The notes beneath the pieces are model-generated. The model saw nothing but the letters and a program-made list of their open reading frames with translations. It was not told where the DNA came from and searched no databases. From Azolla caroliniana (lineage: Eukaryota > Plantae > Polypodiophyta), in NCBI GenBank assembly GCA_043228905.1, contig JBHGNT010000010.1:9486001-9550000 (forward strand): a stretch of DNA of 64,000 nt, given 5' to 3'. Numbering within the stretch: the first letter of the stretch is position 1; each line of letters begins with the position of its first letter. The position numbers and the translations under genes are program-made. This document shows positions 2,054 to 10,444 of the stretch, in pieces.

Positions 2054-4525
2054 ATAGCTTTTTACCCTCTCATTTGGTGTCATTTCCTATTTGTCTTTCT
2101 CTCTTGCTCTCTCTCTAACGTAACCCCCTTGGGAGGGGAGGTGAAGCCATTCTAGGCTTCACCCCCCACCCCAACAACACTTTTGGCACGACCGACAGGA
2201 TGACCCTCCATTGGAGAAGAAGTCACGTTTCCCTCCCTTGCTCTCCCTCTCCAACTAAAGTTTCTCTCTCCCTCTTTGCATCTCTATGTGTGTGTGTGTG
2301 TGTGTGTTAAAAAACATACAACTCAAGTTTGGGTGCCATTGATTTCAAGCAAGTAAGGAAGTGTATGCAGCTAAAGAAAGCTAAACAGATCGAGGAAGCT
2401 GAGAGAAAGCATGTTTAGGAAGCAAGAAGAAGAGCTGAACTCCATGGCGGTTCCCTATTCTAGAGATGCCATGGCAAAATATGTCCACAGTTAGGCCTCC
2501 CAACTGTGTCTCTACAAGTTGCTGCAAGGTCCCAAAAAGAAGGTGCTTTAGACCTTTGGTCTGACAAAGATGGACCTGAACATTTTTGAATCTCAAGCTC
2601 TTCACAACTATGGCCTCTACCATCACACCCCACTCAATCGCTTTCTTCCCAACTCTTTGCCCCACCTCTTTCTTCCCAACTCTTTCTTCCCAACTATGGC
2701 CTCTACCATCCTAACTCTGAAGAATGAGGAACTTCTTCAGAGACTATCCGACATCCCTTGACATGCGGTTAGACGATCGAACGGACGAAGATAGTCAGCA
2801 GACGGCGACGGACAGACAAATGACCGATAGCCAGCGGACGGACAACCGCAAACACAGCCACGGAGACGGACCGGTAGTCGGCCAACGACCGCGGAGACAA
2901 CCGAAGGACAACCGACCCCGAAGGGCAGCCGAAAGACTGAGACACAAACCTGGACAGAGGTTCGACGACCGGCGAACGGTGAACAGCCAACAGATGGCAA
3001 CGGTCGAGAATGACCATGGCCGAGAGGACATCTGAGATGCGGCCGAGAGTACTGCCAAGCGATGGCCCAAAAACGACAGCCGAGACACGCGGCGAAAAGC
3101 ATAGCAAAGACGCGAGGCCATATTCGGGACCCAGAATACGCCCGAGACACGTTGCCAAGATGCGCGGCCCAGAATACGGTTGAGGTGCGCGGCCGAGATG
3201 CGTTGTCGAGGTGTACGACCAAGAAATGGTCGAGAAACTGAGACGTTGTGGAGACACAGCTGAATGGTTGCCATCAGACAGCCACGACTGACGAACAAAG
3301 ACGGCCAGACGAATCGCCGGCCGGATAGATGGCCACGAACAGAGCTGGCCAGCCGGTTGGACAACGGACAACAGGGCAATAGAGGCGACGCATAGGTAGA
3401 TGGAGAAGGGCCAGAGACGGCCAATGGAAGAAGAAGAACTCAAGAAGAGGAAAGGAAGAAATGAGAAGATACGTGGAAGACATAAGGATGCACAGAAAAC
3501 AGAAGAAGAAAAAGGAAAAGAGGTGAACAAGATCGAAACAAGGGAGCAGGGGAAAGGAAGGGGAATAGAAGACAGAGAGAAGAAGAACGCTGAAAAAGAC
3601 AAAGAAGAAACAAAAATAGACACAACGAATTCGACTACAGAAGAGGAATAAGAAAGAATAGAGAGAAAAAGAAAATAGAAGAAAAAGAAAGAACACACAA
3701 AGAGAAGGAAAACAGGAAGAAATGAAGAGCACTAAGAAGAAGCAGAAGAAGAGAAGAACGCACAAGAAGAAAAAGAGGAGCTAGAAGGAAACGAAGAAAG
3801 AGATGAGGGGTATGAAGAGAAAATTTCATAAACATAAGGGCAGAGAAGATGAAATTTCGAAAACTCTAGGGCCGAAAATAAAATTTCAAAACATTTGAGG
3901 GTAAAAATTTTAGAGACCAAGGGTACAAAATCCAAAGCTCAATTCGCATGAAGAAACCGAAAAATACACATACATGTAACAGAATCATGAGGCCCATGCC
4001 GCAATGGAGGAGCCAATTGGTGTGTGATCCAATTGAGCGACATGCTGACCGAACGAGAAGGTTCGAGTCAAGCAATGGTCTGATCGAAGTTATCGATCGT
4101 AGAGCTATGATCCGGTTGATGGATTTCCTACCGTTGAGATGACCGATGGAGTTCTGGTCGTTAATAGTTGCCATGGTGAGTGGGTTCACCGTGTGATGCA
4201 TTGTCCCACAGGCGTGCCATGTGTTACCCGTAGGAGTTGTACGGGGCGGTATAAGGGTAAAACATGTTAAAGGGGTTGTTCGGTATGTGTAATGTATATG
4301 AGTGTGAGGATGAGTATGTGTAAGCACATGCATGTAACGGTCTCTTTTTGTAACGGACATATTATTTATCGTTACATTATGTACTTAGTCTATTAAAACC
4401 CCTTATGGGGGCACATAAGGAATATAGCTTTTTCCCCTCTCATTTGGTGTCATTTCCTATTTGTCTTTCTCTCTTTCTCTCTCTCTAACATAACCCCCTT
4501 GAAGGCTTCACCCCCCACCCCAACA
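2054..4525 (+). mobile_element. Non-autonomous LTR element, family A copy 1 (5' LTR cut by the copia at 1-2053)
   Basis: LTR remnant 2054-2176 matches the end of the LTR at 4222-4525 (TGTTACCCG...CCCCAACA). PBS-like TGGCACGACCGACAGGA at 2184. No gag/pol motifs. Internal GC-rich, purine-rich and 3' regions are homologous to 8800-10155. Confidence 0.88.
2341..2580 (+). pseudogene. Captured fragment resembling the N-terminus of plant DEAD-box RNA helicase RH33/RH48
   Basis: One frame from 2341 reads KQVRKCMQLKKAKQIEEAERKHV*EARRRAEL...VAARSQKEGALDLWSDKDGP, with two stops. This resembles the RH33/RH48 N-terminal motifs as I recall them (KRMHEKKAR, LYEARIRTEI, ADRFMKAGAEDFWNENDGP). Confidence 0.65.
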
Positions 4526-6223
4526 AAACACACTTGGATATATTTGATCGAGAAGTCTTATTCCGTTTTCGGGACCTAAAGAATCATGTTGAACGAGAAA
4601 CCGGACGCAAGATCAAGTGTCTGAGATCGGATGGCGGAAAAGATTACATTTTCGGTCAGTTCACGAGTTATCTATAGACGAAGGGAATCCGACGAAAGTT
4701 CTCCTGTAGATACATGCCAAAGTAGAACGGTGTGGCCGAGCGTCGGAATCAGACATTGGTAGAAGCGGCAAGGATGATGCTAGAATAGAAATGCATGCCC
4801 CGGATTTATTGGGCCGAAGCAATTCAGATTGCTATCTACATACAAAATCGGACATCTGTCTTAGGGACAAAGGTGTCACTACACGAGCTGTATTTCGAGC
4901 GAAAGCCGAATTTAGCGCACCTTCGGGTATTCGGCAACATTGCCTATGTGCATGTGCCAGATGAGAAGAAGAAGAAACTGGATGCAAAATCCGAGAAGTG
5001 CATCCTGGTTGACTACTCCGACGAACATAAGGTGTACAAGTGTTACAACCCCCGTTCAAAGCAAGTCCATGTTAGCCATGATGTCATCTTCGACAAATCA
5101 ACATCTTGGTACTTCTCATCACCCGAACCCAAACCGATTGTTGTGGATGATGCAATTGATTCCAGAATAGAAGGAAGCATAACGGAATCTGAACCAGATA
5201 GTCCGACTTCCCTCCAAATCAGTGGATTGAATCCAGACTGGTTGAGCTGAAACGGTCAACCCGATGACGAGCCGACGAGTAGTGAAGACTCGGTCGTGCT
5301 CTCCCCGCACCAGGAACCGAGGAGACGGATCACGCGTAAAGAAAAAGGGAAGAAGAAGCTGCCGGAGTATGACAGATAGGGAAGAGTCGGATCGGAGCGA
5401 GTCCGATTCCGGAAAGAACAAAGTCGGATCTTTGAAAGAGAAGTCTGAGTTGACCAAGAGGTCCACGAAATCGAAGAACCAGAAGTTGCGCAGTTCCACT
5501 CGCCAAAAGCACCATGTAGTTCGGTACAGATATAAGGAGTATATGGCGCTCATTATGAGTACATGGTGAAGGTGGCAACCATGCGTGAACCGGAGAGCTA
5601 CGCTAAAGCGCCTAAGGATCCGGATTGACGGAAGAGATGCACGCACTCATTGAAAATGAGACATGGAACTTGGTGGATGTATTGAAAGGAGTGAAGCTAA
5701 TCGGTTGCCGGTGGGTATACAATGTCAAATACAACATTGATGGCTCCGTTAACCGGTACAAGGTCCGATTAGTGGCAAAGGGCTATGCACAACAACACGA
5801 CATTAACTATGATGAGACGTTCACGTTGGTCGCAAAGATGACGATCGTCTATGTCTTGCTTGTGGTTGCAGCAACAAAGGGGTGTCATCTACATCAAATG
5901 GATATGAAAAATGTGTTCCTGCAAGGTGATCTTGAGGAACAAGTATACATGGTTCAGCTCCTCGGATTTCAATCCAGAATGAACACGTTGGCCATTTACG
6001 GACTGAAGAAGTTCCTTTACGGAGTAAAGCAAGCCCCGCGTGCTTGGAATGCAAAAATCACGCAACATTTGAATCATATGAGGTTTGTCGCGTCGAGTTC
6101 ATACTCTTCCCTGTTCATCCAGCGGGGACGGAAAGGACCGATAAGCATTTTGCTTTATGTTGATGATTTAGTCATCGCCGGCGCCAACCTGGACGAAATT
6201 GACCGCGTCAAGTCCGAACTCGC
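4526..6223 (+). mobile_element. Degenerate Ty1/copia integrase-RT fragment (host of family A copy 1)
   Basis: Integrase motifs HTWIYL, LRSDGG, YWAEA and HLRVFG (ORF 4795-5250). RT motifs IGCRWVY, LHQMD and LLYVDD (ORF 5625-6248). Stops and frameshifts present. Confidence 0.9.
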
Positions 6224-9900: not shown

Positions 9901-10444
9901 CACAAATGCACAACACGATTTCACGACCCATGCCACATTGAACTAGTCGATTGGTGTATGATCCAATCGCGACTTGTGCTGACCGAACGAGAAGGTTCGA
10001 GTCAAGCAAAGCTCCGATCAAAGTTATCGATCGTAGAGCAGTGGTTCGGTTGAGGGATTTCCAACTATTGAGACGATCAATGGAGTTCCGATCGAGAAGA
10101 GTTGCCATGGCGAGTGGGTTCACCGTGCAATGCACTGTCCCACAGGTGTGCCATGTGTCATAAGGGTATGTGTAATGATGTGGTTGATGTGTATGTGTAA
10201 AGTAAATGAGTATGTGTGAGCACATGCACAATTATGTGCATGTGACAAGAGTGTAACGGTCACTATTTACCGTTACATTATGTATTATATAAACCCCTTA
10301 TGGGGCAAGTAATGGATATACATTTTTCCCCTCTCATTTTGTGTCATTTCCTAATTGTCTTTCTCTCTTGCTCTCTCTCTAACGTAACCCCCTTGGGGGG
10401 GTGGGGGTGAAGCCATTCTAGGCTTTACCCCCCCCACCCCAACA
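6992..10444 (+). mobile_element. Non-autonomous LTR element, family A copy 2
   Basis: 5' LTR 6992-7322. 3' LTR 10156-10444 is near-identical but has two short deletions. PBS TGGCACGCCCG at 7330. Imperfect TSD ACCGT/ACCGC. Interrupts a copia RNase H whose sequence resumes at ~10445. No retroelement ORFs. Confidence 0.92.
7995..8785 (+). pseudogene. CSLC: Captured cellulose synthase-like C (xyloglucan glucan synthase, GT2) fragment, degenerate
   Basis: Collinear CSLC motifs across frameshifts: LAESG..LERTTMEDMDITVR (8000-8062); [23 protein letters not shown] (QxxRW motif region, 8111-8179); [77 protein letters not shown] (from 8461); RKRKMNRIYSK. Confidence 0.9.

What the first reader, a model, noticed from the sequence alone, without database searches (positions are those of the whole stretch)
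2054..10444. Pack-type non-autonomous LTR family with a swappable host-gene cargo slot
Seen: the two copies (2054-4525, 6992-10444) share LTR, PBS, a CT/(TG)n leader, a CGGCCGAG-rich block, a purine-rich block and a conserved 3' region, and encode no retroelement protein. Between the leader and the GC-rich block they carry unrelated inserts that translate to different plant genes (RH33/RH48-like helicase versus CSLC). Known: LTR elements can transduce genes (e.g. maize Bs1), and Pack-MULEs do so systematically. Inference: this is a dedicated retro-vehicle that repeatedly captures host mRNA at a fixed position, possibly producing siRNA against host genes or chimeric retrogenes. This is my best candidate for an undescribed system.
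Basis: partly seen in the sequence, partly recalled or inferred. Interest (0 to 1): 0.85.

Follow-up and report, generated by a model that had tools for sequence, protein, structure and literature searches.

The report
Fern retrotransposon collecting host mRNA pieces
Two gene-less jumping elements in a likely fern genome belong to a family whose copies carry broken pieces of many different host genes, likely copied from messenger RNA; this is a known gene-shuffling route rather than a new system, although the range of cargo in one family is unusually wide.

Summary
Both copies are non-coding LTR elements of one family with unrelated host-gene inserts. The CSLC insert lacks two stretches (121 and 92 nt) present in a single-copy genomic contig and absent from an RNA contig, so it is likely spliced-mRNA derived. 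Copy 1's insert comes from a short fern protein with an RH33-type N-terminus, not a helicase. Of 13 further loci with the same LTR end, 6 carry inserts (FPP, Prp18, Ebp2, WD40, E2F domains; 7 of 7 firmly named pieces are sense) and 7 are small and look cargo-less. The slot is not fixed: cargo is mosaic and serial, ends vary, and one copy has cargo on both sides of an element block. A Gag-Pol Ty3/gypsy sharing the LTR is the likely helper. This matches LTR-mediated retroposition (Bs1, soybean TRIMs, Tan 2016); a 'dedicated vehicle' and siRNA are unsupported.

The parts
2054..2176 (+). Copy 1, remnant (3' part) of the 5' LTR; cut on the left by a copia LTR on the minus strand
2177..2321 (+). Copy 1, 7-nt spacer, PBS-like site (from 2184) and CT/(TG)n leader
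   Evidence: tRNA identity recalled, not tested
2322..2664 (+). Copy 1 cargo: broken sense piece of a short fern gene with an RH33-type N-terminus; multi-copy, joined to the leader also in a related species label
2740..3820 (+). Copy 1 GC-rich block and purine-rich block (bounds approximate); no Pfam family
3821..4221 (+). Copy 1 conserved 3' region, ending in an 18-nt tRNA-end-like motif (4202-4219) where the polypurine tract should be
4222..4525 (+). Copy 1 3' LTR
6987..6991 (+). Copy 2 left target-site copy (right copy 10445-10449, one mismatch); the host is a copia element
   Evidence: (joints across the empty site)
6992..7322 (+). Copy 2 5' LTR
7323..7459 (+). Copy 2 spacer, PBS-like site (from 7330) and CT-rich leader
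7460..7555 (+). Copy 2 cargo piece A: matches a 732-nt RNA-run contig and single-copy DNA contigs of an unidentified gene; shared with L010 and L011
7556..7997 (+). Copy 2 unidentified insert; 7579-7837 is shared with L011 (73%)
7998..8791 (+). Copy 2 cargo: sense, frameshifted CSLC fragment lacking two likely introns (at 8106/8111 and 8229/8237)
8800..9760 (+). Copy 2 GC-rich and purine-rich blocks (bounds approximate); no Pfam family
9761..10155 (+). Copy 2 conserved 3' region with the tRNA-end-like motif at 10136-10153 and no polypurine tract
10156..10444 (+). Copy 2 3' LTR

Best explanation
These are non-coding copies of one LTR retrotransposon family, likely from a fern, whose members carry broken sense-strand pieces of many host genes that were likely copied in from mRNA by template switching during reverse transcription and then spread with the element. 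Shown: shared LTR, spacer, leader and 3' region; different host-gene pieces; two missing intervening stretches in the CSLC piece; multi-gene mosaics; cargo shared between copies that then diverge; cargo-less small copies; a gag start behind the same LTR. Inferred: the helper's reverse transcriptase jumps from element RNA to a co-packaged mRNA and back; captures add up over rounds of retrotransposition; cargo clusters behind the leader only because copies that lose the LTRs, the priming site or the 3' region cannot move again (a survivor effect, not a docking site). Most cargo is likely neutral and decaying.
For: Spliced origin: a single-copy contig aligns to 7998-8106, 8111-8229 and 8237-8353 with 121 and 92 extra letters, in runs X1 and X2 (second joint also in X5), while an RNA-run contig covers 8024-8430 in 383 letters without them. 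The intron-less form is real DNA: one 358-nt contig spans 7944-8301 with 2 differences in X1 and X2, at 2.3 to 3 times the donor contig's depth (depth is only a rough guide). Capture preceded this insertion: cargo differs from the donor by 26 of 311 letters (8%), the two LTRs by 4 of 285 (1.4%). Sense bias: FPP, Prp18, Ebp2, WD40 and E2F Pfam hits (E 1e-7 or better) plus CSLC and the RH33-type piece are 7 of 7 sense. Serial capture: L003 and L009 share 669 nt (94%) and then carry different genes; L011 and copy 2 share about 490 nt and then part; L010 shares only piece A. No TIR, TSD or poly(A) at three tested cargo bounds beyond background. Helper: in L001 the same LTR and spacer precede a gag start 84% identical to a 1836-aa Gag-RT-RH-INT polyprotein. 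Same four features as in Tan et al. 2016 and soybean TRIMs.
Against: Intron loss is shown for one cargo only; no donor with introns was seen for copy 1, and the tool did not print the splice ends of the two extra stretches. L009's Prp18 piece runs into an AT-rich stretch starting with GT that looks like an intron: unspliced capture or a chimeric contig. The 13 loci are short contigs with coverage about 2-3 by their names, so some mosaics may be assembly joins, and none of the 6 cargo loci is complete from LTR to LTR. Micro-similarity at the switch points was not tested, because donor flanks were not available. One weak antisense Pfam hit (E 0.004, L003) and a few at E 0.04 or worse were set aside as noise; two weak sense hits (CCCH E 9e-4, BP28CT E 0.003) were also left out of the 7.
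Confidence: 0.8

Rival explanations
1. A dedicated capture vehicle: the leader end is a recombination hot spot or docking site, and the family is kept because its cargo yields small RNAs or chimeric transcripts that act on host genes.
For: 8 of 15 elements seen (2 window copies, 6 of 13 loci) carry inserts, from at least 7 named genes; every insert starts behind the leader; cargo subfamilies are multi-copy and copy 1's leader-cargo join is also in a related species label. Donor genes of TE-captured fragments show higher exon methylation in gymnosperms (PMC13477047 abstract).
Against: Start and end points differ; the GC-rich block is absent from L003, L011 and L012; L011 has cargo on both sides of a GCC-block remnant; 7 of 13 loci look cargo-less; window cargos are full of stops and frameshifts. 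Unique cargo copies assemble more easily than high-copy empty ones, which inflates the share (inference).
Confidence: 0.12
2. DNA-level origin: processed pseudogenes or Pack-type DNA elements were inserted into, or copied by break repair into, existing LTR copies.
For: L009's intron-like tail; the region is a nest of insertions.
Against: No TIR, TSD or poly(A) at the bounds; the CSLC piece begins and ends inside the coding region; 7 of 7 firm pieces are sense; cargo replaces element blocks rather than splitting a continuous element.
Confidence: 0.06
3. The variety of cargo is largely an assembly artefact.
For: Low-coverage metagenome contigs; L009's upstream flank repeats L003's cargo.
Against: The two window copies differ in cargo; their joins are bridged by contigs from independent runs and studies; L003 and L009 come from different assemblies and share the same leader-FPP join.
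Confidence: 0.02

Closest known systems
Gene-capturing TRIMs of soybean and Medicago, e.g. GmaRetroS15 (Gao et al. 2016, PMC4717578; passages and section 13 read)
   Same: Non-coding LTR elements with exon-only host fragments, some from several genes, multi-copy, 5-bp TSD; tandem arrays; a longer helper sharing the LTR; the paper itself compares them with Pack-MULEs.
   Different: There 30 elements in 7 subfamilies of 1.2-1.4 kb; here one family shows at least 7 named donors among 8 insert-bearing elements, copies reach 2.5-3.5 kb, the host is likely a fern, and there is no polypurine tract.
LTR-mediated retroposition (Tan et al. 2016, PMC5131818; 12 passages read)
   Same: Partial mRNAs, multi-gene chimeras, cargo replacing internal sequence, further rounds of retrotransposition as non-autonomous elements.
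   Different: Micro-similarity at junctions and transcription were not tested here; their cases are mostly single events, here capture is serial within one family.
Maize Bs1 (seen only as described in PMC13317346 section 4 and PMC5131818 passages)
   Same: Plant LTR element with fragments of three host genes, amplified after capture.
   Different: [quoted passage not shown]
Non-chromovirus Ty3/gypsy without aRH: Athila, Phygy, Selgy (Neumann et al. 2019, PMC6317226; passages read)
   Same: Likely helper has Gag, RT, RNase H and integrase in gypsy order, no chromodomain and no second RNase H by Pfam; 5-bp TSD.
   Different: No polypurine tract in the non-autonomous copies; the helper's lineage was not placed on a tree and its own 3' end was not seen.
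Pack-MULEs (PMC13317346 section 4)
   Same: Many host genes sampled by one kind of non-autonomous element; mosaics.
   Different: DNA transposons with TIRs that take genomic DNA with introns; here LTRs and, for CSLC, spliced sequence.

Membership tests
Non-autonomous LTR retrotransposon | Two direct LTRs with TG...CA ends | tested here: met
   (copy 2 complete; copy 1's 5' LTR is cut)
Non-autonomous LTR retrotransposon | 4-6 bp target-site duplication | tested here: met
   5 bp with one mismatch for copy 2; not testable for copy 1
Non-autonomous LTR retrotransposon | Primer-binding site behind the 5' LTR | tested here: inconclusive
   A TGG-starting site follows a 7-nt spacer in 15 of 15 elements plus the helper junction (the 13 loci were chosen by this motif); no tRNA sequence was available to test pairing
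Non-autonomous LTR retrotransposon | Polypurine tract before the 3' LTR | tested here: not met
   8 of 8 ends found have 9 of 20 purines and a longest purine run of 3 (ends were located by the motif, and the block map showed no other full 3' LTR start)
Non-autonomous LTR retrotransposon | No gag-pol | tested here: met
LTR-mediated retrocopy (Tan 2016; Bs1) | Cargo lacks the donor's introns | tested here: met
   CSLC, two sites; one cargo only, and L009 may be an exception
LTR-mediated retrocopy (Tan 2016; Bs1) | No poly(A), TSD or TIR of its own | tested here: met
   three cargo bounds against 500 random position pairs
LTR-mediated retrocopy (Tan 2016; Bs1) | Partial mRNAs, multi-gene chimeras, further amplification | tested here: met
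LTR-mediated retrocopy (Tan 2016; Bs1) | Micro-similarity at switch points | not testable with these tools
   donor flanks were not returned
LTR-mediated retrocopy (Tan 2016; Bs1) | Transcription from the LTR | tested here: inconclusive
   one presumed RNA run, contigs only; see Tried and rejected
TRIM | Small size (mostly under 1-1.5 kb in Gao 2016), non-coding | tested here: inconclusive
   cargo-less units have 575-933 nt interiors, about 1.2-1.7 kb with LTRs; the window copies (2.5 and 3.5 kb) are larger
Pack-MULE / Pack-TIR | Terminal inverted repeats and genomic (intron-bearing) cargo | tested here: not met
Tat clade (helper) | Additional archaeal RNase H domain | tested here: not met
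   no RVT_3 hit in P0144, whereas the unrelated gypsy at 17449-22298 has one
Athila / Phygy / Selgy (helper) | Placement on an RT-RH-INT tree | not tested
   no named reference sequences were fetched

The most novel reading that the evidence does not exclude
A fern LTR lineage that has replaced its polypurine tract with a tRNA-end site is unusually prone to template switching, so its non-autonomous family acts as a genome-wide, Pack-MULE-scale sampler of host mRNAs, stacking pieces of dozens to hundreds of genes behind one LTR promoter and feeding small RNAs back onto the donors.
Probability: 0.15. Interest if true: 0.75.

Novelty: new variant of a known kind. Interest (0 to 1): 0.45.

Why it matters
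The capture route is known, but most plant cases are single elements or a few subfamilies. One family with nested, serial captures gives a datable series for measuring how often and where reverse transcriptase jumps onto host mRNA, in a plant group where my searches found no such description. It also links gene capture to a lineage without a polypurine tract, so the two traits can be tested against each other. In practice such copies mimic paralogues and can inflate gene counts in fern annotations.

Tried and rejected
No whole genome was held, so the genome-wide check was replaced by read laying and one metagenome scan. No RNA holder listed for the stretch; the one presumed RNA run gave only donor-like contigs on copy 2 and nothing on copy 1's cargo: no evidence either way on expression. 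Pfam found nothing in the window cargos. A word-indexed search missed the copy 1 cargo; full phmmer found it. Three scans of viral contigs were empty. Rfam gave one chance hit; ARAGORN found no tRNA; supplement and paper searches for the PBS words gave nothing useful (the five supplements held as text total only 17,418 characters, so the element table was probably not among them). Folding the 3' end gave no consistent structure (z 0.7, -0.7, -2.8). The 320-aa antisense ORF at 2769-3731 has no Pfam match and is not open in copy 2; treated as a by-product of the purine block. The gypsy at 15588-23308 was rejected as helper: no LTR match and it has a polypurine tract. Orientation on the minus strand was considered because of the 3' motif and rejected: gag follows the LTR on the plus strand in L001. 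Pfam was run on 2 of the 7 cargo-less loci (only weak membrane-protein hits, E 0.007 or worse); the other 5 were judged by block map and by eye.
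Full report
Observation. The window is a nest of plant retrotransposons. The two copies are as described. Copy 2 runs from 6992 to 10444, with LTRs at 6992-7322 and 10156-10444 that differ by 4 substitutions in 285 aligned bases plus deletions in the 3' LTR, and a 5-bp target duplication with one mismatch. It sits in a copia element whose relatives are continuous across the site. Copy 1 runs from 2054 to 4525; its 5' LTR is cut by a copia LTR ending at 2053. 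The copies share LTR, spacer, PBS-like site, early leader and the 3' region (77% over 688 nt), but the GC-rich blocks align over only 58 nt. Neither interior has a retroelement domain.

Cargo of copy 2. 7997-8779 matches residues 402-658 of a fern CSLC, with stops and frameshifts. After one Brassica hit scored on two stretches, the best named hits are Pteridium, Adiantum and Ceratopteris, so the host is likely a fern (inference). Laying contigs on the copy showed a single-copy contig in runs X1 and X2 that aligns to 7998-8353 but has 121 extra letters at 8106/8111 and 92 at 8229/8237; X5 shows the second joint. A contig from the presumed RNA run covers 8024-8430 without them. I read these as donor introns; their end letters were not printed. 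The intron-less form is real DNA: one contig spans 7944-8301 with 2 differences in X1 and X2, at depth 145 and 51 against 62 and 17 for the donor contig, a rough sign of 2-3 copies. Cargo and donor differ by 26 of 311 letters, far more than the two LTRs do, so capture came before this insertion. The insert is a mosaic: 7460-7555 matches a different RNA-run contig and single-copy DNA contigs, and 7556-7997 is unidentified.

Cargo of copy 1. 2329-2586 matches four proteins of 91-244 aa (best E 2e-9), one from Ceratopteris, none with a DEAD-box or other firm Pfam domain. The ESM Atlas lists a cluster named 'DEAD-box ATP-dependent RNA helicase 33' with no common Pfam family among the top three. 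The cargo is multi-copy by depth, and a contig from a different species label joins leader to cargo. No intron-bearing donor was seen.

Family. No genome was held. One scan of metagenome contigs with the LTR end, spacer and PBS start returned 13 loci. Seven (L001, L002, L004, L006, L007, L008, L013) have a small interior made of leader, a GCC-rich block and a short 3' region (575-933 nt in the five that reach the 3' LTR), some in tandem; Pfam on 2 of the 7 gave only weak low-complexity hits. Six carry other sequence. Pfam found FPP (L003, L009), Prp18 (L009), Ebp2 (L005), WD40 and E2F (L011) at E 1e-7 or better, weak CCCH (L003) and BP28CT (L012), and nothing in L010. With CSLC and the RH33-type piece, 7 of 7 firm pieces are in the element's sense (chance 1 in 128 if orientation were random and the pieces independent). 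One weak antisense hit (E 0.004) and a few at E 0.04 or worse were treated as noise. Summed contig depth on the LTR and 3' region is some hundreds of times the single-copy level, on the GC and purine blocks only about ten to forty times; the tool warns that this is no copy number.

Is there a fixed slot? No. L003 and L009 share 669 nt and then carry different genes; L011 and copy 2 share about 490 nt and then part; L010 shares only piece A. Inserts start about 65-85 nt after the LTR in L003/L009 and about 135-150 nt in the window copies and L011. The GC-rich block, proposed as the right-hand wall, is in the window copies, L005 and partly L010, and absent from L003, L011 and L012; L011 has WD40 cargo before and E2F cargo after a GCC-block remnant. 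Cargo lies in the dispensable interior, between parts needed for copying.

Helper and priming. In L001 a second LTR with the same spacer is followed by a gag start that is 84% identical to P0144, a 1836-aa polyprotein with Gag, zinc knuckle, RT, RNase H and integrase and no chromodomain or second RNase H by Pfam: a non-chromovirus Ty3/gypsy by the criteria of Neumann et al., lineage not placed. Its role as helper is inferred from the shared LTR; its 3' end was not seen. All 8 element ends found lack a polypurine tract and have an 18-nt motif, inverse to a PBS, two bases before the 3' LTR. I noted this before consulting earlier findings. That it copies the 3' end of tRNA-Arg is recalled, not tested. 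Earlier unchecked notes of this scan report the same trait many times on other pieces of this genome and propose tRNA priming of both strands; I could not test that mechanism.

Mechanism. Most likely (0.8) the helper's particles co-package host mRNA, reverse transcriptase switches template and back, and the chimeric copy moves on and captures again. This is the model of Tan et al. 2016 (passages). Gao et al. 2016 (section 13) report 30 TRIMs in 7 subfamilies with exon-only fragments, two from several genes, most multi-copy, and compare them with Pack-MULEs. The review PMC13317346 (abstract and section 4) covers Bs1 and Veju. PMC13477047 (passages) reports capture by all major TE superfamilies and higher methylation of donor exons. 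PMC6786969 (passages) has no occurrence of 'retrogene' in its main text; its supplements were not read. Of ten paper searches, those aimed at capture or ferns were seen as listings and showed no description of such a family in ferns; one on a missing polypurine tract was empty; subscription papers are not covered.

Against my reading. Intron loss rests on one cargo. L009's Prp18 piece ends in an intron-like stretch, and its upstream flank repeats L003's cargo, so it may be a chimeric contig or an unspliced capture. The loci are low-coverage, none of the six cargo loci is complete, they were chosen by a motif that excludes the helper-type PBS, and they may come from another strain or species than the window. 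Micro-similarity, transcription, small RNAs and methylation were not testable.

Verdict. Real and well supported as RNA-level gene capture by a non-autonomous LTR family; not a fixed-slot or undescribed system. New variant of a known kind: wide, serial cargo in one likely fern family that also lacks a polypurine tract. Interest 0.45.

Noticed in passing
window 4202-4219 and 10136-10153; L001, L002, L004, L006, L007: No polypurine tract; an 18-nt PBS-like motif in inverse orientation lies two bases before the 3' LTR in 8 of 8 ends. Possibly a second tRNA priming site.
   Followed up: partly
window about 33535-34170, minus strand: Solo LTR of a related family (74% to the LTR over 170 nt, longer 3' end) with a 5-bp target duplication, inside a gypsy gag-pol.
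   Followed up: partly
window 15588-23308: Young gypsy element (LTR copies 100% over 300 nt) with an RVT_3-type RNase H and three identical 587-nt tandem repeats (16207-17680) spanning PBS and gag start.
   Followed up: no
window 62901-64000: Satellite-like array of roughly 20-nt palindromic units.
   Followed up: no
L001 1314-1711: Small cargo-less unit joined through one LTR to the start of an autonomous-type gag: a tandem of mini element and helper.
   Followed up: yes
L009 (minus strand): FPP and Prp18 pieces are fused in one stop-free frame of about 220 codons; the Prp18 part looks intact and ends at an intron-like GT.
   Followed up: partly
proteins P0005, P0006: Degenerate CSLC C-terminal pieces from unnamed assemblies; P0005 appears to share a frameshift with copy 2's cargo but runs to the natural end, suggesting sister copies with longer cargo.
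   Followed up: partly
proteins P0124, P0126, P0127: Ferns have short proteins made of the RH33-type N-terminal module without helicase domains.
   Followed up: partly
L006 (minus strand, beyond the elements): A tandem pair of small elements lies next to what looks by eye like host coding sequence.
   Followed up: no
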